Shown: piece by piece, positions 3,796-28,150 of the stretch
Layout: every line of letters starts with the position of its first letter
Numbering within the stretch: position 1 is the stretch's first letter
From: Synechococcus sp. A15-24
GTDB lineage: Bacteria; Cyanobacteriota; Cyanobacteriia; PCC-6307; Cyanobiaceae
NCBI RefSeq assembly: GCF_014280195.1
Contig: NZ_CP047960.1
Span: forward strand, 420,001 to 452,000
DNA: 32,000 bases
Direction of reading: 5' to 3'
Made by a program: the position numbers and the translations under genes
The notes under the pieces: generated by a model
Database searches by the model: none
What the model saw: the letters and a program-made list of their open reading frames with translations, nothing else
What the model was told of the DNA's origin: nothing

Positions 3796-3816
3796 TTTGT
3801 ATGTTGCAAATTAACA

Positions 3817-4980: not shown

Positions 4981-4995
4981 TAAAGCTTCAACTGC

Positions 4996-5031: not shown

Positions 5032-5080
5032 TTACCTCTTGCGCTTAGCCGGTTGCTTCTGGTGACTCATCGCATCTTGA

Positions 5081-6855: not shown

Positions 6856-6898
6856 AGTGATTCATCTCTCCCCACTTGATCAGGGTGAGGGAGATTGA

Positions 6899-11514: not shown

Positions 11515-12828
11515 CTACCCCACGTCCCTGTAAGTCAGGCTCAGCAGCAGGCGCCTGATGATCCGGTTCCGTTGCTGCACAGCCCGTGAGCGGCGAGCCA
11601 CATTGCGATGGGTCGGTCGCATCAGGCTCCCGAGTTGCAACAGGCTCTGTGCTTCCTGCCAATTCTTTTGACGGATGGCTCGCTCAGCGTCGCGTCGCAG
11701 CTGCGTGAAGCTGAGATTGGCGTTGGAAAGATATCCCGATGTTGTGCTGAGGCGTTCAGGTGGATCGGCACGCAGCTGGCGTAGGGCCTCGATCAGCTCC
11801 ACAGGGTCGAGATTTGTGCCGTAGCCCATCCAAGCCAGCCAGTCGGCGTCTGGCGAGGGCAGTGAATGATCAAGAGCATCAAGGTCCTCGACCTCATCAA
11901 GGCAGCGCCAAACGCCCGATCCCGCGAAGACATGGCTGCCGTTGGCAGGATTGATGCCGAAGTCGGCTATCACCAGGGGCCTGCAGCCCATATCCAATGC
12001 GTCGAAAAAGGCGGTGGATGAAATGGTGGCCATCAGCCTGGCCTGACGCAGCAGGTCGGGCAAAGCCCGGTAGTCGAATTTCAGGTTGTCGGGGGGGTGG
12101 CCAAGGGTCTGCAGCAATGTTGTGCTGATGTGGTCTTTGATGCTGTGGAAGGTTGTCTCTCCAGGGGCAATACGCGGTTTGATCAACACCTCCCAGTCCG
12201 GGGAACGCCGGGCAAGGTCCGCCAAAATCCGCACCATCTCAGCGCGGTCAATGGGGTTTGAAGGCATCACCACCTGTTCCGCGAACACCAGTTGCTTGCG
12301 CCTCTGTTGTTGGTCGAGGAGCTGATCATCTGAGATCTCCTGGCGGTGCAATCCGGTGAGAACCGTGCGCTGACCGGCAAACGGACTTCCCTCCAGCATT
12401 CGGTCCAGCGCCTCACGATCCCGTGGGCCACTGAGGCAGACGAGGTCGTAACCCAGCCGCCAGCTCATGCCTTCCATGAACTTCTCCAGCACTACGCCGT
12501 TGAAGCCGCAGAACAACAGCGGTCGCTCACGACTGGGCAGCAATCCCAACGCCAGTCGAAAATCACTGACCTTGCTGCCGGTGAGGTACACACCAATGGC
12601 ATTGAACTGGCGCAGCTCGGGGTGAGTCAGCAATTGCCCCATGTCCAGCCGCCAAAGGTCACCAAGGGCAGCAGCCCGCTGCAGAATCGAATCGGGTGTT
12701 CCCTCACGCGGAATGGCGTTGATGGTGACCTGAATGTTGAGGTCCGACGGGAAGCGACATAGCGCTTCACAGGCCAACAATTGGCTGTCGCTGTCGCCGA
12801 TCAGCAACAGTTTGAACGGACCATTCAT
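11515..12828 (-). CDS. Paralog 1 of 3: putative CMP-sugar-dependent GT-B glycosyltransferase (polysialyltransferase/KpsS-like motif layout)
   Basis: VLIKPRIAPGE, then about 55 aa, then MATISSTAFFDALDMG. This mirrors hhKxHP ... SS/T..h.EA in KpsS, KpsC and NeuS. Clear paralogy to 12825-13880 and 13877-15208. It has a basic amphipathic C-terminal tail. Existence of the CDS is solid; the function is inferred. Confidence 0.6.
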   Translation of the reverse strand: MNGPFKLLLIGDSDSQLLACEALCRFPSDLNIQVTINAIPREGTPDSILQRAAALGDLWRLDMGQLLTHPELRQFNAIGVYLTGSKVSDFRLALGLLPSRERPLLFCGFNGVVLEKFMEGMSWRLGYDLVCLSGPRDREALDRMLEGSPFAGQRTVLTGLHRQEISDDQLLDQQQRRKQLVFAEQVVMPSNPIDRAEMVRILADLARRSPDWEVLIKPRIAPGETTFHSIKDHISTTLLQTLGHPPDNLKFDYRALPDLLRQARLMATISSTAFFDALDMGCRPLVIADFGINPANGSHVFAGSGVWRCLDEVEDLDALDHSLPSPDADWLAWMGYGTNLDPVELIEALRQLRADPPERLSTTSGYLSNANLSFTQLRRDAERAIRQKNWQEAQSLLQLGSLMRPTHRNVARRSRAVQQRNRIIRRLLLSLTYRDVG

Positions 12829-13880
12829 GGCAGCAACTCCACCAGGCGGCGGATCAGGCGCGCGGCGCCGTCATGCACCCCCCAGCCCATGGACTGCAGC
12901 CAGGACGTATTGACGGGTGGCAAACCCAGCAGTTGATCCATGTGGTCGATCGACTGCAGGCGATGCATCAGTCCGCTGCCGAAGAACGTCGTTGTGTCTT
13001 GATCGGAGTGGATGCCGTAATCGCCGATGAGCAGGGTTGGTCGGCCCCAGGCCATAGCAGTCAGGCTCCAGGGGGAGCTGACGCTGAGACAGGCGCTGCA
13101 GCTGGCCAGCTGGCTCAGGAGCTGACCAGGTGCACCAAACACCAGGTTGTCGGGGAAGGTCCAGTCGCTGGATTTGAACTTGGAGATCCAGGGCTGACCT
13201 TTCTCCCAGGCGTGGTCGCGTTGGATCACAATCGACCACTCCGGGGACGTTTCAGCCCAGCGGATCAATTGCTGCAGCAACTGTGCCTTGGCACCGATCT
13301 GGGTGGGGATGCCCTCCTGAACCAGAGCGAGCAGGGTATGGGGCGGTTTTGCGGTTCCGCCTTTGAGAGCTCCGAGGGGAGGACGTTCCGGAGAGAACCA
13401 ATGCCCGATCGCCACGATTGATGGACTGGCCACGCTCTCGGGCCAGAACTGTGTGATCGCCTCAAGCTCCCGTCGCTGACGATCCCCTGGCACCACCAAG
13501 AGATCACAGCATTGGCGGTCGCTCAGCTGATGAACCAGGCTGTCACCAAGGGAGGCCTGGAGAGGACCGCTGAACACCACAGCTGGCTGCACACCACGCT
13601 GCCGGGCGAGGTGTCGGTGAGCATGGGTAAAGAGCTCAAGGTGGTCGCTGCGACGGATGAACAACCCAACGGCGCTGGCGGACTCCAACAGCTCATGGCC
13701 CAGCAGATCCATCAGGGTCAGTGGGATTTGCGGGGTGACGGAAGGCAGAGGGCTGTCTCGGCTTGTGGACAGCGCCGGTCCAATGGTCAGGCAGGACTGA
13801 CCGCGCTGCTCAAGCTGCTGTTGCAGCAGCTGGCAGGCCATAGCGCTGCGGTCGTCATCACTGACCAGAAGGATTGTCAT
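12825..13880 (-). CDS. Paralog 2 of 3: divergent member (IVIQRDHAWEKG instead of KP[HR])
   Basis: SPEWSIVIQRDH...CLSVSSPWSLTAMAWGRPTLLIGDYG aligns with paralogs 1 and 3. I prefer ATG 13880 (MTILLVSDDD), which gives an ATGA overlap with the upstream stop, over GTG 13895. Confidence 0.55.
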   Translation of the reverse strand: MTILLVSDDDRSAMACQLLQQQLEQRGQSCLTIGPALSTSRDSPLPSVTPQIPLTLMDLLGHELLESASAVGLFIRRSDHLELFTHAHRHLARQRGVQPAVVFSGPLQASLGDSLVHQLSDRQCCDLLVVPGDRQRRELEAITQFWPESVASPSIVAIGHWFSPERPPLGALKGGTAKPPHTLLALVQEGIPTQIGAKAQLLQQLIRWAETSPEWSIVIQRDHAWEKGQPWISKFKSSDWTFPDNLVFGAPGQLLSQLASCSACLSVSSPWSLTAMAWGRPTLLIGDYGIHSDQDTTTFFGSGLMHRLQSIDHMDQLLGLPPVNTSWLQSMGWGVHDGAARLIRRLVELLP

Positions 13881-15208
13881 CGCTCCCTTAGCCACCGAGA
13901 CAACCAGCCAAAGCCCACCAGCCCATCGCGGAGTCGGCGCAGAAGGGTGCGGGTTTTGTGCCGTTTTTGCTGGCTGGAGCGCGCACCACCGCTGCTGAGC
14001 ATGCGGCGGCCGCCGTGACGGATGGCGTAGGTCTGCCAGCTGCGGCTGCCCCAGCTGGCCGGTCCAAGACCATCGCTTTGCAACGGGGGCCGCTCGCCAT
14101 GCAGTTGTTTCAACAGGGCTGTCAGAAAGATCTCCTGCCCTTGGGGTTGGTGGCCGTGGCGTTGCAACCAGTCGACCTTGTGAACGGGTGTGAACGGGTC
14201 ACGACAGATTGCCGCGAAGTCCGCAACGGCCCCTGATTCCGCAAAAAAGTGATTGCCCAGGGTCTCGGTGACACCGAGATCGCCCACAATTCGAGTGCTC
14301 ACGCCCATGGCCATGGCCTCAAGGGCTGCCGTTGACGAGACGGTGATGGCGCAGCCGCATTGCCGCAGCAGCCGCGTGGCTGGCTTGAAACTGAGTTGCA
14401 AATTGGGGACCGTGTCACTCATTCGCTCGATCACACCAGCCATTTCGCCGTGGCGACGGTGCAGGGTGCTCTCGATGCTGGAGGTTCGCGGTTTGAAGAT
14501 CACCGGATGATTGGGCCAGGCTTCCGCCAGCTCCTTGAGTTGCTTGCAGATGTAGCGCCGTTGCAGCGGATGGACCGGTATCGAGGGCTGCTCGAAGAAC
14601 ACAATCGATGGGTTGTCGGGCAAGGGTTGCTCGGATCTGGCGTTCCAGAGCAACGGCAAGCCCGTTACTACGGCGTTATCGCTGGTTAGCCCCAGGGCCT
14701 CACGGCCGCGCCGGTACTGGGCGAAATCCTGATCACTGTTGAGGCAGAGCAGATCAGCCCCGGAGCGATCCAGCATGCCCTCCAGGGCAAAACGGAAGAG
14801 AATGCCCGGATAGGCGCTGACAAGAACCGGGCGGTCCGTGCGGCGATGCCACTCTTTCGACAGCATCAGTAGCGCATCACGGCCGCGGAGACCGTCCAAG
14901 CCCAGAATCAGCACATCGGTATCACCGGCCATGGCGGCGGTGAGGCTGCGGAAGTCACCCCATGCTCCTTTTTTAATTGTGGTGCGGCGGTCCGTGCGGC
15001 TGATCTCCAGGCGTTGGCGGCGAGAGAGGGCCCGGTTGGACACCTGCAGCAGATGCAAGGTTGTCTCAGCTCCCTCACTCCGGCAGGCGGCGAGCAAGGT
15101 CATGGCCACCTTGCCGAAGGAGTCGAAGCAGGCGACGGCGGCCACCTTTCTGCCGGAGAGGCGCTTATCGGCAGCGGGCGCCATCGTCGGGCTCCGGGAA
15201 TCTGGCAA
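13877..15208 (-). CDS. Paralog 3 of 3: putative CMP-sugar-dependent GT-B glycosyltransferase
   Basis: VIFKPRTSSIE ... AITVSSTAALEAMAMGVSTRIVGDLG, and VLVSAYPGILFRFALEGM matching LLFCGFNGVVLEKFMEGM of paralog 1. The C-terminal tail is basic (KRHKTRTLLRRLRDGLVGFGWLSRWLRER). The start is TTG 15208 or ATG 15184. Confidence 0.6.
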   Translation of the reverse strand: MPDSRSPTMAPAADKRLSGRKVAAVACFDSFGKVAMTLLAACRSEGAETTLHLLQVSNRALSRRQRLEISRTDRRTTIKKGAWGDFRSLTAAMAGDTDVLILGLDGLRGRDALLMLSKEWHRRTDRPVLVSAYPGILFRFALEGMLDRSGADLLCLNSDQDFAQYRRGREALGLTSDNAVVTGLPLLWNARSEQPLPDNPSIVFFEQPSIPVHPLQRRYICKQLKELAEAWPNHPVIFKPRTSSIESTLHRRHGEMAGVIERMSDTVPNLQLSFKPATRLLRQCGCAITVSSTAALEAMAMGVSTRIVGDLGVTETLGNHFFAESGAVADFAAICRDPFTPVHKVDWLQRHGHQPQGQEIFLTALLKQLHGERPPLQSDGLGPASWGSRSWQTYAIRHGGRRMLSSGGARSSQQKRHKTRTLLRRLRDGLVGFGWLSRWLRER

Positions 15209-15210
15209 AA

Positions 15211-15891
15211 CTAACTGGCAGTGAGAGCCGCAAGGCTGCGGCAGAGGGCCAGATCGGCCGGTGTATCGATCTCCGGCCCCGAGTCCTCGATCACCACCGG
15301 TTGCCAGGGGGCACAGAAGCGGCTGCCTTCGGCGCGGAAACAGGCGGTGCTCATGGCGTAAATCGCACCGGTTTCCAGAAAGGCTGGCTCCAGGTCCTGC
15401 CGCCGTTGACGGGGTTGTTGGGGGTCGTGGTTGATCCCGCGGCCGTCACTGCGCCAGAGAAAGCCATGCCATGGCGCGACGGCGAAGGCACTGTTGATCT
15501 CTGGGTTCTCAAGTGCTGTCAGCACCTGGTCGATCTGCGCACCGCTGGTGAAAGGAGACGTGCACTGCAGGAAGACCAGCAGGGGAGGCAGTGGCCCTTG
15601 CTGTTCCAAGGTGTCCAGGGCATGCAGCAGGGCTGACTCGGAGCTGGCCGTGTCACCGGCGATGGCGACCGGACGACACACCACCTCAGCACCATGGACC
15701 TGGGCTTCCATGGCGATGGCGTCATCGTCGGTGCTGACCACCACCCGATCCACCCCGCGGCTAGCGAATGCAGCCTGCACACTGCGAGCCACCAGGGAGA
15801 GCCCGCCCACCTTCTGCAGATTCTTGCCGGGAATCCCTTTGGAGCCGCCCCGCGCTGGAATCACAGCCAGGGCTCCAGCGGTCGCGCTCAT
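15211..15891 (-). CDS. neuA: Acylneuraminate cytidylyltransferase (CMP-nonulosonate synthetase)
   Basis: LAVIPARGGSKGIPGKNL is the NeuA-type CTP_transf_3 N-terminal motif, not the KdsB-type IPAR..S.RLPGKPL. Size is 226 aa. Confidence 0.85.
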   Translation of the reverse strand: MSATAGALAVIPARGGSKGIPGKNLQKVGGLSLVARSVQAAFASRGVDRVVVSTDDDAIAMEAQVHGAEVVCRPVAIAGDTASSESALLHALDTLEQQGPLPPLLVFLQCTSPFTSGAQIDQVLTALENPEINSAFAVAPWHGFLWRSDGRGINHDPQQPRQRRQDLEPAFLETGAIYAMSTACFRAEGSRFCAPWQPVVIEDSGPEIDTPADLALCRSLAALTAS

Positions 15892-15925
15892 CAGAGAGGA
15901 TTCAGGTCGCTCCCCCTCCTACCCG

Positions 15926-17911
15926 ATGATTCAGCGCTTCGGGGTGCCGGAGACCGGTCTACTGGCCCATCGCACGGTGCCGGCGCTGCTGGCTCCGGCG
16001 CAGTTGCTGCCGGGCCGGCGGCGGGATGTGGAGGTGTTGCTGGCCTGGGGGCGACGCCCCAGTGCCCGGCGGGTCGAGCGCTTGGGGCGGCGCTGGCAGC
16101 TACCGGTGTGGCATTTGGAGGATGGTCTGCTGCGCTCCTTGGCCAAGGGCCGCCAGCATCCGCCGCTGGCGCTGTTGGTTGATGACCTGGGGGTTCATTT
16201 CGATGCCACTCAGCCCAGCCGGATGGAGCAGCGGATTCAGCAACCGCTGACCCCTGCACAACACAACCGGGCCCGTGAACTTCAGCAGCGGTGGTGTGCA
16301 CAGCGGCTGAGCAAGCTCAACCCCGCCCGGGAATCACCGGCTCCAGCCGAGCCTTTTGTGCTGGTTGTGGACCAGTCCGCCGGCGACTGCTCCATCGGCC
16401 TCGGGCAAGCCGGGCCGGAGAGCTTCCGGCGCATGTTGCAGGAGGCGCTGCGGGATCAGCCGGACTGTCTGGCGGTGGTGAAGGTGCATCCGGATGTGAT
16501 CCGGGGCCGCGCCCGGGGCCATTTCCGCCGGCAGGATCTGCAGCACCCGCGCATCCGCGTTTGCGCTGACGGATTGCACCCTGCCGCCCTGTTGGAGCAG
16601 GCCCAGGCGGTGTATGTGGTGACCTCCCAGATGGGCTTCGAAGCACTGCTGTGGGGGCGAACGGTCCACTGCTTTGGCATGCCCTTCTATGCCGGTTGGG
16701 GGCTGACCCATGATCGTCTGCCGGCTCCGGTCCGTCGGGGGCAGATGGTGCCTTTGGAAGCGCTGGTGCATGCAGTGCTGGTGGCGGGCACCCGTTGCGT
16801 GGATCCCCATCACCATCAGCCCTGCCCGATCGAAACGTTGATGGATGCCATCGGGCTGCAACGCCGCCTGCAGGTGGCGGATCCTCAGCGGGTGGAAGCC
16901 TTCGGGTTTACGCCCTGGAAGCAACGCAGCCTCAAGCGCTTTCTGGCCGGCAGTGAGCTGCGCTTCCGCCTGCCGCGGGCGTGGCCGGGGCGGCGGGCGG
17001 AGGCCGTGGCGGTGTGGGGGCGGCGGGCGCGACCACGCCTGCTGGCCACGGCGCGCCAACGGTCGCTGCCGCTGCTGCAGGTGGAGGACGGCTTCCTGCG
17101 TTCGGTGGGGCTGGGGGCGGATCTGATCGATCCGATCTCCTGGGTGGTGGACCTCCGGGGGATGTATTACGACGCCACGGAGAGCAGCGATCTGGAGCAT
17201 CTTCTGGCCACCGCTGACTGGAGTAAGCCGCAGTTGCAGCGGGCTGAGGCCCTGCGCCAACAGCTGGTGGAGCAGGCGATCACCAAGTACAACCTGTCGG
17301 GAGATGGGTGGCAGCGCCCCAAGGGGGTCCGGCGGGTGGTGTTGGTGGTGGGCCAGGTGGAAAGCGACGCTTCAATCCGCTACGGCGCTCCCGGGATCAC
17401 CACCAACCTGGCTCTGCTGGAGGCTGTTCGGGCCGCTGAACCGGATGCTTTTGTGGTTTACAAGCCCCATCCGGATGTGGTGGCGGGCCTCTGCCGCTCT
17501 GGGGAAGGGGAAGAGCGGGCTGGGCAGGTCTGCGATTACCTGTTGGTTGATGGTTCGATCCATGCCCTGTTTGAGCAGGTGGATGCCCTGCATGTGCTCA
17601 CCTCACTGGCGGGATTTGAGGCGCTGCTGCGGGGGGTGGAGGTGCACTGCTGGGGACTGCCCTTTTATTCGGGTTGGGATCTGACGCATGACCGGTTGTC
17701 GTCTCCCCGGCGGGGGCGGCCGCTGCCATTGGCGGCTTTGGTGCATGCCGCCTTGATTGATTACCCCCGCTACGTCAGCCGTCACAGCGGTTGGTTCATC
17801 ACTCCAGAGCAAGCCATTGAGGAGCTGGTGGCCTGGCGGGATGCACCTGCAGCTCCACGCACCCTGGTGCAGGCCCTGTTCCGCCACTGGGGGCGACTGC
17901 GCCGCCGCTGA
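15926..17911 (+). CDS. kpsC: KpsC-like capsule beta-Kdo transferase (tandem Capsule_synth domains)
   Basis: Colinear with E. coli KpsC as I recall it. Shared blocks are MIQRFG.. start, LAWGRRPSA, WHLEDGLLRS, VVKVHPDV, VYVVTSQMGFEALLWG..CFGMPFYAGWGLT. The second repeat has LQVEDGFLRSVGLGADL, YYDATESSDLE, KYNL, VGQVESDASI, VVYKPHPDV, VLTSLAGFEALLRG..CWGLPFYSGWDLT. The track ORF start at 15431 is an antisense-overlap artefact; ATG 15926 is in frame. Confidence 0.9.
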   Translation: MIQRFGVPETGLLAHRTVPALLAPAQLLPGRRRDVEVLLAWGRRPSARRVERLGRRWQLPVWHLEDGLLRSLAKGRQHPPLALLVDDLGVHFDATQPSRMEQRIQQPLTPAQHNRARELQQRWCAQRLSKLNPARESPAPAEPFVLVVDQSAGDCSIGLGQAGPESFRRMLQEALRDQPDCLAVVKVHPDVIRGRARGHFRRQDLQHPRIRVCADGLHPAALLEQAQAVYVVTSQMGFEALLWGRTVHCFGMPFYAGWGLTHDRLPAPVRRGQMVPLEALVHAVLVAGTRCVDPHHHQPCPIETLMDAIGLQRRLQVADPQRVEAFGFTPWKQRSLKRFLAGSELRFRLPRAWPGRRAEAVAVWGRRARPRLLATARQRSLPLLQVEDGFLRSVGLGADLIDPISWVVDLRGMYYDATESSDLEHLLATADWSKPQLQRAEALRQQLVEQAITKYNLSGDGWQRPKGVRRVVLVVGQVESDASIRYGAPGITTNLALLEAVRAAEPDAFVVYKPHPDVVAGLCRSGEGEERAGQVCDYLLVDGSIHALFEQVDALHVLTSLAGFEALLRGVEVHCWGLPFYSGWDLTHDRLSSPRRGRPLPLAALVHAALIDYPRYVSRHSGWFITPEQAIEELVAWRDAPAAPRTLVQALFRHWGRLRRR

Positions 17912-17931: not shown

Positions 17932-19959
17932 GTGCTGGACGGCGATTTGGGCAGGGGACGGGCGCCGGCGCTGGTGCAGGTGCGCATCGAAGGACCGGTT
18001 CTGCTGCTGATGGGCCCGATCGGGCTGTTCTTTGCCCGCTTCAGCCGATACCTGCAGGGATGTGGCATCCCGGTCACCAAGGTGCGTTTTCCTTTGCGGG
18101 AATTCGGCTTCCCTTCGGACGTGTGTGTGCCGTTTCAAAAGCCGATGGAGGCCTGGCGGCCCTTCCTGCGTCAGCTGCTGCAGGAGCGCGGCATCCGACA
18201 CATCTTCATGTATGGGGACTTCATCATTCCCCACCGGATTGCCATCGAGGAGGCTCGCGACCTGGGGGTGGAAGCCTGGGTGTTCGAACTCGGATACCTG
18301 CGCCCCAACTACGTGACCCTGGAGCGGGATCGGGTCAACGCCCGCTCCAACCTCAACCAACCCGCGGCCTTCTACCGCAACCTGCCACCGGTGGATCAGC
18401 TGCCGCCGGAGATTGTGCTGGATCCGGGCTGGCGCTGGCGCAAGGCCTGGAAGGCTCCCACGTTCATTCAACACGCCTTCACCCGCTACCCGATCATTGA
18501 GGGGGAGCACAAACTGCAGCCCAATCCGGGCTTCCTCTGGTGCCAGCTGCGCGGCAGCTGGCGTTACTGGCTGTACCGCTGGCAGGAGCGCAACCTGAAG
18601 CGCCGGCTGCTGGAGCACCTGTCCTTCTTCCTGGCGGTGCTGCAGGTGTCCAGTGATTCCCAGATCCAGCTGGGGTCGCCCTACCGCGGCATGCACGACT
18701 TCATCGAAGACGTGATCCGCTCCTTTGCGGACCATGCCCACAGCTCCGACCATTTGGCTTTCAAGCACCACCCGCGGGACCGGGGCTACAACCATTACGG
18801 CAGCCTGATTGGTGTGCTGGCGCGCCGCTACGGCGTCTGCGGGCGGGTTCACTACTTCCACGACGGTGCCCTCAGCCGCTACCTGCGCACCTGCCGCGGT
18901 GTGATCACGGTGAACAGCACGGTGGGCCTCCAGGCCCTGTTCCATGCGGTGCCCACCAAAACCATGGGCAATACCTTTTACAACCTGGAGGGGCTGACGG
19001 ATCAGAAGCCCCTGGATGGGTTTTGGCGGGACCCCCAGCCCAGTGACCGAGCGCTGTTCTGGCGGTTTTACCACCACCTGGTGATGACCACCCAAGTGAA
19101 CGGCAATTTCGACGGGGACTTCCCCTTCCGGATCACCTTCCCGATCGGCCTTGAGGCTCGCCAGCTCGAACCGCAGCCGCAGTTGCCGCCGCTGCGTCCA
19201 CGGCCACGGATAAACCCCCTGCTGCTGCCGGTGCGGGTGCTGGCTCGCCTGGGTTGGGCAGCCCTGGGGTTTGTCTTGTACGGCCTGCAGCTGCCAGCGG
19301 TGCTGCTCCGCCGATCGGACTGGGCGGCTCAGCTGATGACCTGGGCGTCTGCTGTGGCGTTGCGGGCGCTTGGGGTGCAGGTGGTGGTTGATGACAGCCA
19401 GCCCAGTGAGCCAGCTGTGGTGCCCCTGGTGCATATCTTCAACCACCGCAGCCCCTGTGATGGCCTGGTGATTCAGGGGGTGTTGCGCCTGCCGGGCATG
19501 ACCACGGCGCAGCTGCATCTGAAGTGGGTGCTGCCTGGCTATGCGGCTGCGGCCCGCAATGCCGGCTCGGCCGTTCTCGATCATCGCCAGCCCAGTTCGC
19601 GGCTGGAGGGAATGATGCGGGCCTCAGCGTTGTTGCGCGATCACGGCCAGATCATGCTGGCCCCCAACGGCTCCCTGGTGACGCCGATCGAACAGCGGGT
19701 CTCCCCCAGCGCCTGGATGCTGGCTCAGCATTACAACGGTTCGGTTGTGCCCTGGCTGTTCCGCTACGACGGGCTGGAGGGGGCCGTGGGAGCCCGGTAC
19801 AGGCCTTGGGCGCTGCTGCTCAGCCGGTTGACGGCTCCACTTGGAACGATTCACTGTCGCCGCGGGCGCTCCCAGGATCTGGTTCTGCCTAAGGATCCTC
19901 GGGACCGGGAGGGGTTTAGCCGGGCTGTGCAGGCGTACTACCAGCAAGTACAAGACTGA
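17932..19959 (+). CDS. kpsS: KpsS-like Kdo transferase fused to a C-terminal PlsC/LPLAT-type acyltransferase domain
   Basis: KpsS blocks are LLLMGPIGLFF, FELGYLRPNYVT, FFLAVLQVSSDSQI, LAFKHHPRDRG, VITVNSTVGLQALF, MTTQVNGNF. These are followed by a Pro-rich linker and a hydrophobic segment. Next come the HX4D box FNHRSPCD (His codon 19444-19446, Asp codon 19459-19461) and APNGS (19660-19674) in the position of the FPEGT block. GTG start. Confidence 0.85.
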   Translation: MLDGDLGRGRAPALVQVRIEGPVLLLMGPIGLFFARFSRYLQGCGIPVTKVRFPLREFGFPSDVCVPFQKPMEAWRPFLRQLLQERGIRHIFMYGDFIIPHRIAIEEARDLGVEAWVFELGYLRPNYVTLERDRVNARSNLNQPAAFYRNLPPVDQLPPEIVLDPGWRWRKAWKAPTFIQHAFTRYPIIEGEHKLQPNPGFLWCQLRGSWRYWLYRWQERNLKRRLLEHLSFFLAVLQVSSDSQIQLGSPYRGMHDFIEDVIRSFADHAHSSDHLAFKHHPRDRGYNHYGSLIGVLARRYGVCGRVHYFHDGALSRYLRTCRGVITVNSTVGLQALFHAVPTKTMGNTFYNLEGLTDQKPLDGFWRDPQPSDRALFWRFYHHLVMTTQVNGNFDGDFPFRITFPIGLEARQLEPQPQLPPLRPRPRINPLLLPVRVLARLGWAALGFVLYGLQLPAVLLRRSDWAAQLMTWASAVALRALGVQVVVDDSQPSEPAVVPLVHIFNHRSPCDGLVIQGVLRLPGMTTAQLHLKWVLPGYAAAARNAGSAVLDHRQPSSRLEGMMRASALLRDHGQIMLAPNGSLVTPIEQRVSPSAWMLAQHYNGSVVPWLFRYDGLEGAVGARYRPWALLLSRLTAPLGTIHCRRGRSQDLVLPKDPRDREGFSRAVQAYYQQVQD

Positions 19960-21181
19960 TGTTGTGACCGCCGAAGCCGAAGGCGTTTTTGAGCAGCAGG
20001 CGTTGGCCTTGATCAGAAGACAGCTCAACAGGACCCTGGTTGGCCACCGCCAGCTCCACCTCAGGATCCAGGGGATCGGCATTTAGGCTGCCGGGTAACA
20101 CTCCGTGACGCAGGGCCTGCAGGGCCAGGATGGTTTCTACCGCTCCGGCGCCCCCCAGCAGATGGCCGAGTTGGCCTTTGGGGGCGCAGACCGGCAGATG
20201 ATCGGCGGCACTGCCGAGGCTGCGCCGCAATGCTCTGGCCTCCGCCAGGTCGCCGAGGCTGGTGCCGGTGGCATGGGCCTGAACGCCGCAGAGGTCCGAG
20301 GCGCTCACATCCGCCCGGCGCAGGGCATCATCAATGGCACGGCTGGCCTGTAGCCCCTGGGGTTCGGGGGAGACGATGTGATGAGCATCGCTGCTGCTGC
20401 CGCTGGCCAGCAACCAACCCAGATCCGCTCCTGCTGGCGTGTCCCGCTGCCGCATCAGGGCCAGGACGCCGGCGCCTTCGGAGAGCACAAAGCCATCTCT
20501 ATTGAGCCCATAGGGACGGGAGGCCTGATCGGGGGCGTCGTTGCGGCCGGAGAGGGCGCGCATGGCAGCAAAGCCCACAAGCCCCAGTCGGTTCACTGGT
20601 GCTTCGCTGCCTCCGGCCAGCACCAGATCGGCGCGGTCGTCGTTGAGCAGCATCTGGCCCAGCATCAACGCTTCGGCGCCCGAGGCGCAGGCGGACACCG
20701 GGGTGTGGGCACCGCCGAGCAGACCGAACTCGATGGCGACCTGACCAGCGGCAGCATCGGGGATCAGCATCGGCACGGTGAGGGGGTTGACCCGGCTCGG
20801 TCCCCCTGCGCTGAGTTGCGTGTGCTGCTCGTGCATCGTGGCGAGGCCGCCGATGCCGGTGCCGATCACCACAGCGATCCGACTTGGATCGAGCCCTTGT
20901 GTGATGGACCCGGCCATGGCCCAGGCCTGCCGCGCGGCCACCAGGGCAAGCTGGGCACAGCGATCGGAGCGGCGGCGGAGCAGGGGCGGCAGGCTGTCGA
21001 GGGCCCTCGTTGGGACGCAACCGGCCAGGCGCACGGGCAGATCCTCGGTCCAGGCAGCCTGGAGGGTCTGGATGCCGCTGTGACCAGCGATCACCGACGT
21101 CCAGGTGCTGTCGGCATCGGCACCAAGGGGGTTGAGGGAACCCCAACCCACCACTGCGGTGGGCTCAGCTCGGGAAGCCAT
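19916..21181 (-). CDS. Beta-ketoacyl-ACP synthase (FabF/FabB-like elongating KAS, Cys-His-His)
   Basis: Active-site contexts are PVSACASGAEAL, VQAHATGTSLGD, KGQLGHLLGGAG, and the C-terminal NAFGFGGHN. The 3' end overlaps the convergent kpsS-fusion gene by 44 nt. Confidence 0.85.
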   Translation of the reverse strand: MASRAEPTAVVGWGSLNPLGADADSTWTSVIAGHSGIQTLQAAWTEDLPVRLAGCVPTRALDSLPPLLRRRSDRCAQLALVAARQAWAMAGSITQGLDPSRIAVVIGTGIGGLATMHEQHTQLSAGGPSRVNPLTVPMLIPDAAAGQVAIEFGLLGGAHTPVSACASGAEALMLGQMLLNDDRADLVLAGGSEAPVNRLGLVGFAAMRALSGRNDAPDQASRPYGLNRDGFVLSEGAGVLALMRQRDTPAGADLGWLLASGSSSDAHHIVSPEPQGLQASRAIDDALRRADVSASDLCGVQAHATGTSLGDLAEARALRRSLGSAADHLPVCAPKGQLGHLLGGAGAVETILALQALRHGVLPGSLNADPLDPEVELAVANQGPVELSSDQGQRLLLKNAFGFGGHNISLVLAGSTPAQPG

Positions 21182-21446
21182 CGGCCGGGCTGGGGCTCAA
21201 GGACTCCAGGTGCTGCTGAATGTCCGCAACGGTGCGGAACCGGAGTAGTTCCTCCTCTTTAATCCGGATTCCGAAGTTGGTGTCCGCCTCGATCAGGATT
21301 TCGTAGAACCCAAGGGAATCAATTCCCACGTCCTCCATCAGCCGGGCGTTAGGGGTGATCACGGCTGGGTCGGCGCCGGAGATGCGATGCAGGATCTCGA
21401 TCAGCCGTCCCTGCAGCTCTTGCTTGTCAGGGCAGCTCTCTCCCAA
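21165..21446 (-). CDS. Acyl carrier protein (dedicated, locus-encoded)
   Basis: The phosphopantetheine attachment context is DVGIDSLGFYEI. Size is about 93 aa. TTG start, with no upstream ATG. It overlaps the KAS start by 17 nt. Confidence 0.7.
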   Translation of the reverse strand: MGESCPDKQELQGRLIEILHRISGADPAVITPNARLMEDVGIDSLGFYEILIEADTNFGIRIKEEELLRFRTVADIQQHLESLSPSPADGFPS

Positions 21447-21491: not shown

Positions 21492-22403
21492 TTACACGTC
21501 GCCTCGGTACCAGCTGAAGCGTTGGTAGACGGGCTGATGGGGGAGGTCGATGAAGAGTGCCAGTCGTTCTTGAGGGAGTTTCCTCAGATCTGCAGCCATC
21601 AGGATTTCAGTGATCTGGTTGAAGTCCAGGGCCAGGGACAGATCACAGACTTCCGCCTGCATCAAGTTGACGTACTGACGCAGCAGCACCGGTAATCGGA
21701 AATTGTCGGAGAGGGTCTGGCGGATCTCCTGTTCCAGGGCCTGGATGTGGCCGCTGGGATGGGGGGTGTCATCAGCGCGAATGCCTGGGACGGGATGGCG
21801 TGGGGCCGGTAAGGGGGTGTCAAGGCGCCGATAGGGGGGACGCAGCAGGGCGCTGAGGAAAGCGCTGTTCACGGCGTCGCTGTGGGCGAAGTGGTTGTAG
21901 GAGACCAACCCGTGCAGCAACTCGTAACCGCTGCGGGCAGCGATCAGCAGACCGCCGCGGAACAGGGCCATCAGCGAGTGGGGCTGGCGTTGGAAGCGTT
22001 CCGCCAGGGCGACCCTGCCGATTTCGAGGTGGTTGGTGCGGCTGGCCAGGTCCGCCTTGATGCCGGGATAGACGTGTTCGAGATAAGAGCCGCTGCTGCC
22101 GGGTAAGGGGGTGGCGCCGACGGGGATGAACTGCAGGCGGGCGGAGCCGGCGAGATCGCCGCTGCTGCGTTCCACCAGCAGCAGATGGTCGTAATCGGGA
22201 TCGCGACCATCCAGGTCCCGCTCGTCTCCCGACCCGGACAACTGCTTGCGGTACGTTGATTCGCGAAGCTGTCCAACGGCATCGGCCACAGCGTAGAAGG
22301 CGCTGCCTGCGATCAGGTGCAGATCGAGGTCGTCAATCGTGAGTAAGCGTGTTTCCGTCGCCGAGGCCACGTCGGAAGGGATGGACGGACCAGACAGCGT
22401 CAT
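21492..22403 (-). CDS. GNAT-fold N-acyltransferase of the OlsB / hemolysin-like (Acetyltransf_5) type
   Basis: The blocks DGRDPDYDHLLLVE, LEIGRVALAE and LPVLLRQYVNLMQAEV resemble the OlsB-family blocks D.FD..C.HLLV, ELSRF.V and PPLLKGYLRLGA (from memory). It is first in an operon with ACP and KAS. Confidence 0.65.
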   Translation of the reverse strand: MTLSGPSIPSDVASATETRLLTIDDLDLHLIAGSAFYAVADAVGQLRESTYRKQLSGSGDERDLDGRDPDYDHLLLVERSSGDLAGSARLQFIPVGATPLPGSSGSYLEHVYPGIKADLASRTNHLEIGRVALAERFQRQPHSLMALFRGGLLIAARSGYELLHGLVSYNHFAHSDAVNSAFLSALLRPPYRRLDTPLPAPRHPVPGIRADDTPHPSGHIQALEQEIRQTLSDNFRLPVLLRQYVNLMQAEVCDLSLALDFNQITEILMAADLRKLPQERLALFIDLPHQPVYQRFSWYRGDV

Positions 22404-22458: not shown

Positions 22459-23571
22459 TTGTCGTTTCCCACTGCCTTGATCCCTTTCTCTTCGCGCTCT
22501 GCTGCTGTGGTCTGCACCCGGCTGATCGCCGGTCTGGCGGCCACTGCGACGTGCTTGGTGGTCGGCCCGCTTGCAGCTGTTGCAGATCCAGTGACCTCTG
22601 CCAGAAGCTCACCGAGCAGCGGCCAAGAGGTGTTTCGCTACCGACTGGGACCTGGCGACAGTCTGGCTATGTCGGTATTCAAGATGAGCGGTTACCAGGC
22701 AAATGTGAAGGTGCTGAGCGATGGCACCATCAACCTTCCGCGCATCGGCACCATTGAGGTCTGGGGACTGACTTTAGAAGAAGCGCGTCAGCGCATCAGC
22801 GCGGCCTATGAGGTCTTTCTGCGTCGGCCGATCGTCTACCTCGATCTGGTGACCGCCCGTCCGGTGAAGGTCACAGTGACCGGTGAAGTGGAACGTCCAG
22901 GGGTGTTCAGCCTGCCGACCCAAGCGGAGGGGGGCTGGCCGACGCTGGTGGATGTGGTGCAGAAAGCTGGTGGTGTGTCCGCCAGTGGTGATCTGTCCCG
23001 TATTGAAGTGCTGCGTCCTGCCGTGCGCCGCGGTGGCTCGATGCGTCGTTATCAATTCGATTACCTCACGGTGCTTCGCGAGGGTGGGCATGCCCCGAAC
23101 CCCCTGATTTACGACGGCGACAGCATTCGCTTGTACAAAAACGAAGAAGTCGATAACGCTGACCTGATCACGACGGCGGCCTCCAACTTCGCTCCCGACA
23201 CGATCCGCGTGAACGTGATCGGGGAAGTGGCTAAGCCAGGCATCCAGCAGGTGCCATCCAATGCGCCGTTGTCCCAGGCGATCTTTGCGTCGGGCGGCAT
23301 CACCCGTCGCGGCAGCATCAGCACAGTGGAATTGGTGCGTATGGATGGCGAGGGTGAGCCGACGGTCAAAGTGATGAGCTTTGCCCCCAGCGCCGTGCTG
23401 AGCAGCCCGACTAACCCACCGCTCCGTCAAGGAGATGTGATTGTGGTGAACCGCTCAGCTCTCGCGAGGGTGACCGATGGCCTGACCGATGCTTTTTCAC
23501 CGCTCACGCCGATCGTCAATGCCGCCTCGATTTTCCGGATCCTTGGCTTGCCCTCAGTGATTGGCAACTGA
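22459..23571 (+). CDS. Polysaccharide export protein (Wza/KpsD-like: Poly_export + SLBB domains)
   Basis: N-terminal signal-like segment (LIAGLAATATCLVVGPLAAVA). The Poly_export motif is YRLGPGDSLAMSVF...LSDGTINLPRIGTIEVWGLT. SLBB-like repeats are VTVTGEVERPGVF and VNVIGEVAKPGIQ. The start is TTG 22459 or GTG 22507. Confidence 0.8.
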   Translation: MSFPTALIPFSSRSAAVVCTRLIAGLAATATCLVVGPLAAVADPVTSARSSPSSGQEVFRYRLGPGDSLAMSVFKMSGYQANVKVLSDGTINLPRIGTIEVWGLTLEEARQRISAAYEVFLRRPIVYLDLVTARPVKVTVTGEVERPGVFSLPTQAEGGWPTLVDVVQKAGGVSASGDLSRIEVLRPAVRRGGSMRRYQFDYLTVLREGGHAPNPLIYDGDSIRLYKNEEVDNADLITTAASNFAPDTIRVNVIGEVAKPGIQQVPSNAPLSQAIFASGGITRRGSISTVELVRMDGEGEPTVKVMSFAPSAVLSSPTNPPLRQGDVIVVNRSALARVTDGLTDAFSPLTPIVNAASIFRILGLPSVIGN

Positions 23572-24910: not shown

Positions 24911-25355
24911 AACCTGACAACTCTATGAAGTTGCCGGACACTGCAAAGCTGAATCGAGGAGAGGAGGGTGAAAGCAGAATTGAAAGTGAGCACCGAATTA
25001 GATGTAAATTAATATTTAGTGAGATTAAGGGCCTGGACCGGCTTCACTTTCACTCTGGCTGTTATTAGGGGGAATTAAAATGAAGTCAGAAGTTATTTCG
25101 TTAGGGAATGAAAGTCGGACAGCAAAGTCGCAGCTGTTTGTCAAGTAGAGGATTGCGAGGCTATGGGTATTGCACGAATATCAAGAAGTCGAAGAATTTA
25201 TGTTACCCAGGGTGCCATTTCTTTGGGTATAAAGGGCCTAGACTTGAGGCCTGGAGACAATTGGTTTTGCAGTGCGCTATACATATCTCTGGTCGAAAAT
25301 ATAAATGTATCTAAGATCAGGATCCGCGATTTATTTGGAGGTGAGTCGTTTCGAC

Positions 25356-25826
<471 letters not shown>

Positions 25827-25828
25827 CT

Positions 25829-28150
<2,322 letters not shown>

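What the first reader, a model, noticed from the sequence alone, without database searches (positions are those of the whole stretch)
17932..19959. KpsS fused to a membrane-tethered PlsC/LPLAT-type acyltransferase domain
Seen in sequence: residues about 1-405 follow the KpsS block order (LGYLRPNY, LAVLQVSSDSQI, FKHHPRDRG, VITVNSTVGLQAL, TTQVNGNF). Next come the Pro-rich linker EPQPQLPPLRPRPR and a hydrophobic stretch (LLLPVRVLARLGWAALGFVLYGLQLPAVLL). Then comes an acyltransferase-like module with an HX4D box (FNHRSPCD, 19444-19461) and APNGS (19660-19674). Established knowledge: KpsS puts the first Kdo on a lyso-phosphatidylglycerol acceptor, and HX4D defines glycerolipid/lysolipid acyltransferases, including OlsA. 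Inference: anchor acylation and the first glycosyl transfer are physically coupled here. That would be a new architecture for the start of capsule assembly.
Basis: partly seen in the sequence, partly recalled or inferred. Interest (0 to 1): 0.75.

Follow-up and report, generated by a model that had tools for sequence, protein, structure and literature searches.

The report
Capsule starter enzyme fused to acyltransferase
In marine Synechococcus, the enzyme that starts capsule assembly on a membrane lipid is joined in one protein to a lipid acyltransferase and always sits beside an aminolipid-type N-acyltransferase, which suggests (untested) that these very abundant ocean phototrophs build a dedicated lipid anchor for their capsule.

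Summary
Window 17932..19959 (+) is one 675-aa ORF. Its N half is a KpsS-like beta-Kdo glycosyltransferase (PF05159, invariant QxxxD). A disordered linker follows, then a PlsC-fold acyltransferase (PF01553 above gathering score; NHRSPCD, APNGS, VPW; best fold match T. maritima PlsC).

It is not an assembly artefact. About 160 cluster representatives from independent assemblies, all named ones picocyanobacteria, keep the same single ORF. Both halves are under purifying selection.

New here: the fusion is part of a conserved module of KpsC, KpsS, the PlsC-like acyltransferase and an OlsB/OlsF-C/GlsB-type N-acyltransferase. Synechococcus and Cyanobium add a dedicated ACP and a FabF-like synthase.

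In Prochlorococcus, kpsS and the acyltransferase are separate adjacent genes. In some Synechococcus the fused domain has lost its catalytic motifs; in both such Synechococcus loci examined, an intact free-standing copy follows it. So the coupling is functional but need not be physical.

The N-acyl plus O-acyl transferase pair is the signature of acyloxyacyl aminolipid pathways (OlsBA, OlsF, GlsBA). My best reading is a dedicated module that builds or acylates the capsule's lipid anchor. The acceptor (lyso-PG or an amide-linked, possibly phosphorus-free lipid) is unresolved.

The architecture already sits in databases under generic names. I found no paper describing it. Verdict: new variant of a known kind.

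The parts
17932..19959 (+). Whole ORF: KpsS-like glycosyltransferase fused to a PlsC-fold acyltransferase (675 aa, GTG start 21 nt after the kpsC stop; stop codon 19957-19959)
   Evidence: homologues align from residue 1-6, so the start lies at or near 17932
17932..19146 (+). KpsS-like beta-Kdo glycosyltransferase module (aa 1-405)
   Evidence: PF05159 E 6.5e-54; NCBIfam KpsS 277 bits, full-length alignment; Foldseek to KpsC 6mgd/6mgb/6mgc/8fux, TM normalised by target 0.49-0.57
18643..18657 (+). QVSSD, the QxxxD motif of beta-Kdo transferases (Q238, D242)
   Evidence: Q238 and D242 invariant in 45 sequences; the motif and the Asp nucleophile are described for KpsC in PMC10148158
19147..19221 (+). 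Pro-rich inter-domain linker (aa 406-430), variable in length and sequence
   Evidence: pLDDT below 50 at 416-426; gapped, unconserved columns; the Prochlorococcus genes are split at about this point
19222..19368 (+). Two-helix hydrophobic/amphipathic motif (helices 431-458 and 462-479), probable membrane-embedding part of the acyltransferase
   Evidence: helices; hydropathy maximum 1.65; Foldseek alignment to 5kym spans 258 columns, nearly the whole 232-241-residue chain; free-standing paralogues begin with this segment
19369..19956 (+). Acyltransferase alpha/beta core (aa 480-675)
   Evidence: PF01553 29-32 bits against a gathering score of 23; 5kym by sequence profile E 6e-4 to 5e-5 and by fold E 2e-6, TM 0.56-0.61; model pLDDT 91
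19441..19461 (+). Block I NHRSPCD (HX4D: H505...D510)
   Evidence: aligned to ANHQSLMD of T. maritima PlsC; D510 invariant, N504/H505/P508 at least 90%
19576..19587 (+). Block II-like LDHR; the Arg of PlsC 'LDR' is replaced by a conserved His (H551)
   Evidence: HMMER alignment 'lldhr' to 'FLDRK'; H551 at least 90% conserved and invariant across the C-domain family alignments (H127)
19660..19674 (+). Block III APNGS (FPSGS in the freshwater clade), equivalent of PlsC FPEGT
   Evidence: FPSGS in 100, APNGS in 62 of 163 intact representatives
19744..19755 (+). Block IV VVPW (P607 invariant)
15926..17911 (+). KpsC, two-module beta-Kdo transferase homologue (likely start at MIQRFG; the mechanical ORF starts at 15431)
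   Evidence: PF05159, 4 stretches, E 4.4e-76; start inferred from homologues
19916..21181 (-). FabF-type beta-ketoacyl-ACP synthase; its 3' end overlaps the fusion gene's 3' end by 44 nt
   Evidence: PF00109+PF02801; fabF 382 bits, below the equivalog cut-off of 494; Cys/His/His motifs read directly in the translation
21165..21446 (-). Dedicated acyl carrier protein (DSL phosphopantetheine site)
   Evidence: PF00550 E 3e-10; below every ACP equivalog cut-off
21492..22403 (-). OlsB/OlsF-C/GlsB-type (PF13444) N-acyltransferase homologue
   Evidence: PF13444 40 bits; OlsF model positions 304-568 of 570, E 1.6e-14; 10 of 10 orthologues hit OlsF-C, 8 GlsB, 3 OlsB, 3 FeeM
22459..23571 (+). Wza/KpsD-type outer-membrane polysaccharide export protein
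   Evidence: Poly_export + SLBB
15211..15891 (-). CMP-sugar cytidylyltransferase (PseF/NeuA/KdsB-like), divergent from kpsC
   Evidence: PF02348; PseF 123 bits, KdsB models 36-66 bits, all below cut-offs

Best explanation
What is shown. The gene encodes a bifunctional inner-membrane enzyme of an ABC-transporter-type (group-2-like) capsule locus of a marine Synechococcus. The N half is a KpsS-type retaining ulosonic-acid (beta-Kdo-type) transferase. It places the first sugar on a membrane lipid, and the adjacent two-module KpsC extends it. The C half is a distinct, picocyanobacteria-restricted member of the PlsC/LPLAT acyltransferase superfamily with an intact His-Asp catalytic dyad. It probably sits on the cytoplasmic leaflet through a PlsC-like two-helix motif, which would also hold the glycosyltransferase at the membrane. 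Shown here: domain identities, motif conservation, fold, fusion/fission, synteny and purifying selection.

What is inferred. The acyltransferase works on the capsule's lipid terminus, not on bulk phospholipid. It acts together with the always-adjacent OlsB/OlsF-C/GlsB-type N-acyltransferase. In Synechococcus and Cyanobium the pair would be fed by a dedicated ACP and FabF-like condensing enzyme.

Most specific version (about 0.3 on its own). The pair would act like OlsB then OlsA. The N-acyltransferase would put a (3-hydroxy)acyl chain from ACP onto an amine. The fused domain would then esterify a second chain, giving an acyloxyacyl, possibly phosphorus-free anchor that KpsS glycosylates. The synthase plus ACP could supply the 3-oxo/3-hydroxyacyl-ACP.

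More conservative version. The domain acylates lyso-phosphatidylglycerol or its Kdo derivative. The stated confidence refers to the general claim: a dedicated acyltransferase for the capsule lipid anchor, functionally coupled to KpsS.
For: Domain identities.

Catalytic motifs conserved. Both motifs are present in 163 of 187 fusion-length representatives.

Purifying selection on both halves: dN/dS is 0.05-0.10 (N half) and 0.05-0.15 (C half) against the closest loci.

Fusion and fission:
- Prochlorococcus SP3034 has kpsS (410 aa) and the acyltransferase (252 aa) as adjacent genes 1 nt apart, followed by the PF13444 gene, a KpsD-like gene, kpsM and kpsT.
- The Prochlorococcus acyltransferase aligns to the window C half at E 5e-35.

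The KpsC / KpsS(-)acyltransferase / PF13444 module recurs in 34 genome loci and in three further divergent clades.

Where the fused domain has lost its motifs, an intact free-standing paralogue follows it (L030; L039).

The neighbour's only named relatives are aminolipid N-acyltransferases: OlsF-C, GlsB, OlsB and FeeM.

The known OlsBA, OlsF and GlsBA aminolipid pathways pair such an N-acyltransferase with an OlsA-type O-acyltransferase (PMC12971839).

There is a precedent for a dedicated acyltransferase making a non-PG anchor in an ABC-transporter capsule: VexE and the diacyl-HexNAc terminus of Vi antigen (PMC8760489).
Against: - There is no biochemical or lipid-structure evidence. The acceptor and the acyl donor are unknown.
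- The C domain cannot be assigned to PlsC or OlsA. All NCBIfam hits are weak and far below cut-offs.
- The PF13444 protein is likewise far below the OlsF/OlsB/GlsB cut-offs.
- ACP and the synthase are absent from the Prochlorococcus, L035 and L038 versions, so they are accessory.
- One lineage (L040) has a degenerate fused domain and no intact acyltransferase in the 9 kb visible. The activity may therefore be dispensable or encoded elsewhere.
- No amine-supplying enzyme is conserved in the module.
- Canonical KpsS uses phosphatidylglycerol (PMC11041684, PMC10148158), and nothing here shows a different acceptor.
- kpsM/kpsT and Kdo-synthesis genes are not in this window.
Confidence: 0.6

Rival explanations
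1. The C domain is a lyso-phosphatidylglycerol (or Kdo-lyso-PG) acyltransferase that makes or restores the diacyl PG anchor used by KpsS. The PF13444/ACP/synthase genes serve something else, for example N-acylation of the nonulosonic-acid polymer.
For: - PG-Kdo is the established anchor of KpsS/KpsC systems, and '(lyso)PG' is what was found chemically.
- The best structural match is a lysophosphatidate acyltransferase.
- The locus encodes NeuB and a PseF-like cytidylyltransferase. From my own knowledge, nonulosonic acids often carry N-acyl groups.
Against: - Blocks II and III, which in GPAT/PlsC are implicated in binding the glycerol phosphate (established knowledge, not tested here), are altered: His for Arg, and N/S for Glu.
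- The PF13444 gene stays with kpsS and the acyltransferase in loci whose sugar genes differ: dTDP-sugar genes in Prochlorococcus, DegT in L035. It therefore belongs to the conserved core, not the serotype-specific part.
Confidence: 0.2
2. The C domain acylates a sugar hydroxyl of the glycolipid terminus, as PatA does on phosphatidylinositol mannosides or LpxL/LpxM on lipid A. This would add an extra chain that strengthens retention of the capsule in the outer membrane.
For: PatA and LpxM are among the significant fold matches. In Vi antigen, acylation by VexE is needed for surface retention rather than for polymerisation.
Against: PatA and LpxM match much worse than PlsC (TM 0.34-0.40 against 0.56-0.61). 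This reading does not explain the conserved N-acyltransferase partner.
Confidence: 0.1
3. The C domain is kept mainly as a membrane anchor or scaffold for KpsS, and its catalysis is secondary or dispensable.
For: 24 of 187 fusion-length representatives have lost HX4D and block III yet keep the N-terminal helices and the full length. E. coli KpsC is reported to carry its own C-terminal membrane-anchoring region.
Against: - Catalytic residues are conserved in 87% of representatives.
- The C half is under purifying selection.
- An intact paralogue accompanies the dead domain in 2 of the 3 loci examined.
- Prochlorococcus keeps the acyltransferase as a separate gene.
Confidence: 0.07
4. Artefact or coincidence: two genes merged by a frameshift or assembly error, or a housekeeping PlsC fused by chance.
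For: Split forms exist in Prochlorococcus. NCBI names some members '1-acyl-sn-glycerol-3-phosphate acyltransferase'.
Against: - The single ORF is present in about 160 cluster representatives and in isolate and complete genomes.
- The linker is in frame and of variable length.
- The family is small and isolated: only 29 of 1.84 billion representatives score at E<=1e-30.
- It scores far below the PlsC cut-offs.
- It degenerates in some lineages, which an essential housekeeping enzyme could not do.
Confidence: 0.03

Closest known systems
KpsS/KpsC (GT107) glycolipid-anchor synthesis of E. coli group 2, Neisseria and Pasteurella capsules
   Same: - PF05159 domain with the invariant QxxxD motif.
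- GT-B-like fold matching KpsC crystal structures.
- kpsS directly after a two-module kpsC.
- A KpsD/Wza-type exporter is adjacent.
- In the Prochlorococcus version, KpsM, KpsT, KdsA, KpsF and KdsB are in the same locus.
   Different: - Canonical KpsS is a stand-alone protein of about 390 aa with no acyltransferase.
- This protein scores 277 bits against an equivalog cut-off of 600.
- No Kdo-synthesis or kpsMT genes are in this window, and the local cytidylyltransferase is PseF/NeuA-like.
- The acceptor lipid is unknown.
PlsC (1-acyl-sn-glycerol-3-phosphate acyltransferase; T. maritima structure 5kym)
   Same: - Best sequence and fold match.
- HX4D, block III P-x-G-(S/T) and block IV V-P.
- Two helices ahead of the alpha/beta core, within the Foldseek alignment that spans nearly the whole 5kym chain.
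   Different: - Only 16% identity.
- Below the PlsC model cut-offs.
- Block II Arg is replaced by His, and block III Glu by Asn or Ser.
- Restricted to capsule loci of picocyanobacteria.
- Duplicated or degenerate in some genomes.
OlsB/OlsA, OlsF and GlsB/GlsA acyloxyacyl aminolipid synthases
   Same: - A PF13444 N-acyltransferase is paired with a PF01553 O-acyltransferase in one locus.
- The neighbour aligns to the whole N-acyltransferase domain of OlsF.
- Acyl-ACP logic is suggested by the dedicated ACP.
   Different: - The O-acyltransferase is fused to KpsS rather than to the N-acyltransferase.
- Scores are far below every equivalog cut-off.
- No aminolipid of this kind is reported from cyanobacteria; OlsB homologues were noted mainly in Nostocales.
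- The head group is unknown.
VexE, the dedicated acyltransferase for the diacyl-HexNAc terminus of Vi antigen
   Same: An ABC-transporter-type capsule with its own acyltransferase for the lipid terminus. That acyltransferase carries an extra domain (TPR repeats), which suggests it joins a larger complex.
   Different: - Vi loci lack KpsS and KpsC, whereas this locus keeps both.
- Homology between VexE and this domain was not tested here.
Dedicated ACP plus condensing-enzyme sets for surface glycolipids in rhizobia (NodF/NodE; AcpXL cluster; the rkp-1 region with a KpsS-like RkpJ). Recalled from memory; my search found nothing usable
   Same: A special ACP and a FabF-like synthase encoded beside surface-polysaccharide genes, thought to supply an unusual acyl chain or lipid carrier.
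   Different: No sequence comparison was done. Those systems have no KpsS-acyltransferase fusion that I know of.

Membership tests
KpsS / GT107 beta-Kdo transferase | Capsule_synth (PF05159) domain above the gathering score | tested here: met
   183.9 bits against 20, aa 91-393
KpsS / GT107 beta-Kdo transferase | Invariant QxxxD motif carrying the Asp nucleophile | tested here: met
   Q238-V-S-S-D242; Q and D invariant in 45 sequences; motif defined in PMC10148158
KpsS / GT107 beta-Kdo transferase | NCBIfam KpsS equivalog cut-off | tested here: not met
   277.2 bits against 600, although the alignment covers the full length
KpsS / GT107 beta-Kdo transferase | Fold like solved beta-Kdo transferases | tested here: met
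   Foldseek to KpsC 6mgd/6mgb/6mgc/8fux, E 2e-6 to 5e-5, TM normalised by target 0.48-0.57; WbbB 8csf is also matched
KpsS / GT107 beta-Kdo transferase | Uses CMP-Kdo, with a Kdo supply available | tested here: inconclusive
   No KdsA or KpsF in the window or within 8 kb in the Synechococcus loci. Both are present in the Prochlorococcus locus. The rest of the genome could not be seen.
KpsS / GT107 beta-Kdo transferase | Phosphatidylglycerol acceptor | not testable with these tools
   Requires enzymology or the chemical structure of the terminus
PlsC / AGPAT (LPLAT superfamily, PF01553) | PF01553 above the gathering score | tested here: met
   29.0 bits in the full protein, 31.9 bits for the C part alone, against 23
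PlsC / AGPAT (LPLAT superfamily, PF01553) | Block I HX4D catalytic dyad | tested here: met
   NHRSPCD aligned to ANHQSLMD of 5kym; D510 invariant, H505 at least 90%
PlsC / AGPAT (LPLAT superfamily, PF01553) | Block II Arg and block III Glu (FPEGT), implicated in binding the glycerol phosphate | tested here: not met
   LDHR has His at the Arg position, and APNGS/FPSGS has N/S at the Glu position. The role of these residues comes from established knowledge and was not tested.
PlsC / AGPAT (LPLAT superfamily, PF01553) | PlsC fold, including the N-terminal two-helix membrane motif | tested here: met
   5kym E 2e-6, TM 0.56-0.61, 258-259 aligned columns; model pLDDT 91
PlsC / AGPAT (LPLAT superfamily, PF01553) | NCBIfam PlsC / AGP_acyltrn cut-offs | tested here: not met
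   TIGR00530 scores 12 bits against 103 for the window domain; best family member E 2.5e-7
OlsA (lyso-ornithine lipid O-acyltransferase) | NCBIfam OlsA model | tested here: not met
   Only 4 of 21 family members hit it, best E 2.5e-5; the window domain does not
OlsA (lyso-ornithine lipid O-acyltransferase) | Genetic pairing with an OlsB-type N-acyltransferase | tested here: met
   A PF13444 gene is adjacent in every locus long enough to show it
OlsB / OlsF-C / GlsB N-acyltransferases (neighbour gene 21492-22403) | PF13444 domain, with alignment to the whole N-acyltransferase domain | tested here: met
   PF13444 40.3 bits against 22.4; OlsF model positions 304-568 of 570; 10 of 10 orthologues
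OlsB / OlsF-C / GlsB N-acyltransferases (neighbour gene 21492-22403) | Equivalog cut-offs (OlsF 620, GlsB 300) | tested here: not met
   53 bits for OlsF and 12.5 bits for GlsB
ABC-transporter-dependent (group-2-like) capsule system | KpsC + KpsS + KpsD-type exporter + KpsM/KpsT | tested here: inconclusive
   KpsC, KpsS and a Wza/KpsD-like protein are in the window. KpsM and KpsT are not in the window. Both are present in the Prochlorococcus locus, and a KpsM-like ABC2_membrane gene is present in L035.

The most novel reading that the evidence does not exclude
Picocyanobacteria, which are known for replacing phospholipids with phosphorus-free lipids, do not hang their capsule on phosphatidylglycerol. 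Instead they use a purpose-built, amide-linked acyloxyacyl (aminolipid-like, phosphorus-free) anchor. It would be made by an OlsB-type N-acyltransferase and the OlsA-like domain fused to KpsS, from acyl chains supplied by a dedicated ACP and condensing enzyme. KpsS would then be a Kdo-type transferase with a new class of lipid acceptor, and the fusion would channel the freshly made lipid straight into glycosylation.
Probability: 0.25. Interest if true: 0.85.

Novelty: new variant of a known kind. Interest (0 to 1): 0.65.

Why it matters
How KpsS-type capsule systems obtain and shape their lipid acceptor is still open; the terminus is written as '(lyso)phosphatidylglycerol' in the literature read here. 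This module gives a natural genetic handle on that question. It links the first glycosyltransferase to one acyltransferase by fusion and to a second by strict synteny.

The module occurs in Synechococcus, Cyanobium and Prochlorococcus, whose cell surfaces govern grazing, phage attachment and aggregation. A 2015 phylum-wide survey concluded that the confined distribution of KpsS/KpsC argued against Kdo-linked anchors in cyanobacterial polysaccharides, or for a different mechanism (PMC4594306). This conserved module shows that picocyanobacteria do carry KpsC and KpsS homologues, with an added lipid-building part.

If the anchor proves to be phosphorus-free, it would extend phosphorus-sparing lipid remodelling to surface polysaccharide anchors.

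Tried and rejected
I rebuilt the alignment as A3.
- NCBIfam could not tell PlsC-like from OlsA-like for the C domain. All hits were weak.
- A PDB sequence search with the PF13444 neighbour gave only chance-level hits.
- I tested whether the 337-aa protein of unknown function at 5081-6094 is the counterpart of the conserved 334-aa GT-B-like protein of the Prochlorococcus, L035 and L038 loci. It shows no similarity.
- Literature searches for the fusion, for KpsS in Synechococcus or Prochlorococcus, and for rkpJ lipid-carrier work found nothing on this architecture.
- Frameshift or assembly artefact, and housekeeping PlsC, were considered and rejected (see the rival explanations).
- A single-pass transmembrane tether was rejected as the preferred reading, on topology and on the PlsC-like two-helix model. 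Hydropathy alone (maximum 1.65) does not exclude it.
- dN/dS against distant loci was discarded because dS is saturated.


Full report

Window 17932..19959 (+) is an uninterrupted 675-codon ORF. It starts at a GTG 21 nt after the stop of the upstream kpsC homologue.

Pfam finds Capsule_synth (PF05159) at aa 91-393 (E 6.5e-54). It also finds Acyltransferase (PF01553) at aa 497-585, at 29.0 bits against a gathering score of 23, or 31.9 bits when the C part is scanned alone. NCBIfam's KpsS model aligns over its whole length but scores 277 bits, below the equivalog cut-off of 600.

AlphaFold2 with a 45-sequence alignment gives two folded halves (mean pLDDT 82.5) separated by a disordered linker at 416-426. 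The C part modelled alone reaches pLDDT 91 and pTM 0.88. Foldseek against the PDB matches the N half to the KpsC beta-Kdo transferases (6mgd, 6mgb, 6mgc, 8fux; TM normalised by target 0.48-0.57). It matches the C half best to T. maritima PlsC (5kym: E 2e-6, TM 0.56-0.61, about 258 aligned columns). Plant GPAT, PatA and LpxM follow, all members of the same acyltransferase superfamily.

A sequence profile of the C part finds 5kym as its only PDB relative (E 6e-4 to 5e-5). The four classical blocks line up:
- NHRSPCD with ANHQSLMD
- LDHR with LDRK
- APNGS with FPEGT
- VVPW with V-L-P

**2. Is it an artefact?**

No. A search with the whole protein returns more than a hundred full-length proteins (645-700 aa) at 49-94% identity. 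Nearly all carry both precomputed Pfam domains. A scan of one genome per species finds 34 loci, all in Synechococcus, Parasynechococcus, Cyanobium or unnamed cyanobacterial bins. They include the complete chromosome of Synechococcus sp. MIT S1220.

In the 45-sequence alignment, D510 is invariant. N504, H505, P508, P578, G580, S581 and W608 are at least 90% conserved, and P607 is invariant. In the N half, Q238 and D242 are invariant. These two residues form the QxxxD motif that carries the nucleophile in beta-Kdo transferases (PMC10148158).

Against the closest loci, dN/dS is 0.05-0.10 for the N half and 0.05-0.15 for the C half. The C half evolves faster (45-94% against 73-92% amino-acid identity) but is clearly constrained.

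**3.

The gene order in the window is:
- three DUF6716 putative glycosyltransferases and a PseF/NeuA-like cytidylyltransferase (minus strand)
- kpsC and the fusion gene (plus strand)
- a FabF-type ketoacyl-ACP synthase, an acyl carrier protein and a PF13444 acyltransferase (minus strand)
- a Wza/KpsD-type exporter (plus strand)
- purB

This order is kept in every one of the 34 loci long enough to show it.

The PF13444 protein aligns to the entire C-terminal N-acyltransferase domain of OlsF (model positions 304-568 of 570, E 1.6e-14). Among ten orthologues from four clades, all ten hit OlsF, eight hit GlsB, three hit OlsB and three hit FeeM. All scores are far below equivalog cut-offs. Every named relative is an enzyme that N-acylates an amino acid with an acyl-ACP-derived chain.

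**4. Fusion, fission and decay**

Three observations define how tightly the two halves are tied.

(a) In Prochlorococcus sp. SP3034 (L037, and metagenome L036), kpsS (410 aa) and the acyltransferase (252 aa) are separate genes 1 nt apart. After them come the PF13444 gene, a weak GT-B-like protein of 334 aa, a KpsD-like gene, kpsM and kpsT. Before them come kdsB-kdsC, kpsF, kdsA and kpsC. The separate acyltransferase aligns to the window C half at E 5e-35.

(b) Some Synechococcus (L010, L013, L014) have an intact fused domain and also a free-standing paralogue of about 260 aa directly downstream.

(c) In a subgroup of about 630 aa the fused domain has lost His505 and block III (for example 'VFDGLSLFD'). 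It keeps its helices and its length. In both such loci examined (L030, L039), an intact free-standing copy follows.

A further lineage (L040) has a degenerate fused domain and no intact acyltransferase in the 9 kb available. It carries a P450 and a weak alpha/beta-hydrolase match instead, but still has the synthase, ACP and PF13444 genes.

Two more divergent fused clades (L035, L038) have kpsC, the fusion gene, PF13444 and the 324-334-aa GT-B-like gene, but no ACP or synthase.

The conserved core is therefore KpsC, KpsS, the PlsC-like acyltransferase and the OlsB-like acyltransferase. ACP and the synthase are an addition in Synechococcus and Cyanobium. The fusion is frequent but not obligatory.

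**5. How isolated is the acyltransferase family?**

An exhaustive profile search of 1.84 billion representatives finds 736 proteins at E<=1e-3 but only 29 at E<=1e-30. Those 29 are the fused forms (three 50%-identity clusters) and the free-standing forms. The rest are generic acyltransferases of about 250 aa scoring near 50 bits.

Named members and flanking genes all point to picocyanobacteria. L035's HisB falls in a 90%-identity cluster with Cyanobium, Synechococcus and Vulcanococcus. Two labels, 'Mesorhizobium' for L026 and 'Planctomycetes' for one cluster member, look like binning errors.

NCBIfam cannot place the domain. All 21 members of the C-domain alignment (A3) give weak AGP_acyltrn hits, six hit PlsC and four hit OlsA, none near a cut-off.

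**6. Mechanism**

Shown:
- a KpsS-type glycosyltransferase with its catalytic motif
- an LPLAT-fold acyltransferase with its His-Asp dyad
- a flexible linker
- two helices at the start of the acyltransferase, which lie within the Foldseek alignment that spans nearly the whole PlsC chain

Hydropathy of the first helix is borderline for a membrane span (maximum 1.65).

Inferred topology: KpsS needs cytoplasmic CMP-sugar and the acyltransferase needs cytoplasmic acyl-ACP or acyl-CoA. A single true transmembrane helix between them would separate them from one of their substrates. A monotopic or hairpin insertion, as described for PlsC (established knowledge), fits better. It would also anchor KpsS at the membrane, which may explain why dead C domains are retained.

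Inferred function: the acyltransferase acts on the capsule's lipid terminus. The argument rests on fusion and fission, strict synteny, compensation by paralogues, and the fact that a housekeeping enzyme could not decay.

Which lipid? Two readings remain.

*Conservative reading.* The substrate is (lyso)phosphatidylglycerol, the known KpsS anchor (PMC11041684, PMC10148158).

*Aminolipid-like reading.* The known OlsBA, OlsF and GlsBA acyloxyacyl aminolipid pathways pair an OlsB-type N-acyltransferase with an OlsA-type O-acyltransferase (PMC12971839). That is exactly the pair conserved here. OlsB uses 3-hydroxyacyl-ACP. A lone FabF-type synthase with its own ACP would make a 3-oxoacyl-ACP, which is one reduction away from that substrate (inference). 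The changed blocks II and III fit an acceptor that is not a glycerol phosphate, given the established role of those blocks, but this was not tested.

A precedent for a non-PG, dedicated-acyltransferase anchor in an ABC-transporter capsule is VexE and the diacyl-HexNAc terminus of Vi antigen (PMC8760489, PMC12220298).

My estimates:
- 0.6 for the general claim that the domain acylates the capsule lipid anchor
- about 0.3 for the OlsB-then-OlsA version
- about 0.2 for the lyso-PG version

**7. Comparison and novelty**

What it works like: a KpsS/KpsC initiation system combined with an OlsBA-like or VexE-like anchor-acylation step.

Membership: the protein belongs to the PF05159 and PF01553 superfamilies. 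It fails the curated equivalog thresholds for KpsS, PlsC and OlsA, and it differs at two acyltransferase blocks.

The architecture is already present in public databases under generic or misleading names. I found no paper that describes or interprets it. The only cyanobacterial survey treats KpsS and KpsC solely as PF05159 hits.

I rate it a new variant of a known kind, with interest 0.65. The fusion is real, and the conserved partnership with an aminolipid-type N-acyltransferase in the ocean's dominant phototrophs is unexpected. It makes the question of the capsule's lipid acceptor testable. No chemistry has been shown, and the simplest outcome, PG acylation, would be a modest finding.

Noticed in passing
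L014 10050-10838; L010 2843-3580; L013 10094-10834; L030 8854-9705; L039 7881-8681: Free-standing paralogues (about 260-283 aa) of the fused acyltransferase domain lie directly downstream of the fusion gene in some Synechococcus. The four whose sequences I read (L014, L030, L039/P0209 and P0241) have intact NHxxPxD and APNGS motifs. In L030 and L039 the fused copy has lost its catalytic motifs.
   Followed up: yes
L036 7356-9348; L037 7824-9816 (Prochlorococcus sp. SP3034): kpsS and the acyltransferase are separate genes 1 nt apart. They sit in a complete kps-like locus (kdsB-kdsC fusion, kpsF, kdsA, kpsC, kpsS, acyltransferase, PF13444, a GT-B-like gene, a KpsD-like gene, kpsM, kpsT, and a 395-aa possible KpsE) with no ACP or synthase.
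   Followed up: yes
L040 132-9030: A variant locus has a degenerate fused domain followed by a cytochrome P450 and a 369-aa protein with weak lipase/alpha-beta-hydrolase matches. Then come kpsC, the synthase, ACP and PF13444. No intact PlsC-like gene is visible. Separately, an alpha/beta-hydrolase (OlsI) is the O-acyltransferase in the third ornithine-lipid pathway.
   Followed up: partly
window 1-32000; 15211-15891: No kdsA, kpsF, kpsM or kpsT is in the window or within 8 kb in the Synechococcus loci. The only local cytidylyltransferase is PseF/NeuA-like and lies next to a NeuB-family gene. The donor sugar of KpsS and KpsC in this genome (Kdo or another ulosonic acid) is therefore not established.
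   Followed up: partly
window 6899-11476: Three tandem sulfotransferase genes (6899-9215, minus strand) lie next to a 754-aa multidomain protein at 9212-11476 with CBS, NeuB, SAF and xylose-isomerase-like TIM barrel domains. This suggests a sulfated nonulosonic-acid polymer.
   Followed up: no
window 11515-15208: Three paralogous DUF6716 'putative glycosyltransferase' genes lie in tandem. The Prochlorococcus, L035 and L038 loci lack them and have a conserved 324-334-aa weak GT-B-like gene after the PF13444 gene instead. These may be the enzymes that extend from the linker.
   Followed up: partly
window 19916-19959: The 3' ends of the fusion gene (+) and the ketoacyl-ACP synthase gene (-) overlap convergently by 44 nt. 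Similar overlaps appear in several related loci (coordinates).
   Followed up: no
window 1-9000 against 10000-32000: G+C is 44-58% in the first 9 kb and 59-69% afterwards, apart from one 1-kb block at 51% (25001-26000). The low-GC part holds the sulfotransferases, a metallopeptidase-like gene and a P-loop ATPase. It looks like a variable, possibly acquired, serotype-specific region.
   Followed up: no
L026; cluster of P0423: A contig labelled 'Mesorhizobium carmichaelinearum' MAG carries the full cyanobacterial module at 45-73% identity. A partial member of another cluster is labelled Planctomycetes. Both are probably binning errors rather than spread outside cyanobacteria.
   Followed up: partly
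window 15431-15925: The mechanical ORF for kpsC starts at 15431, inside the divergent cytidylyltransferase gene. Homologues indicate the real start is near 15926 (MIQRFG...).
   Followed up: partly
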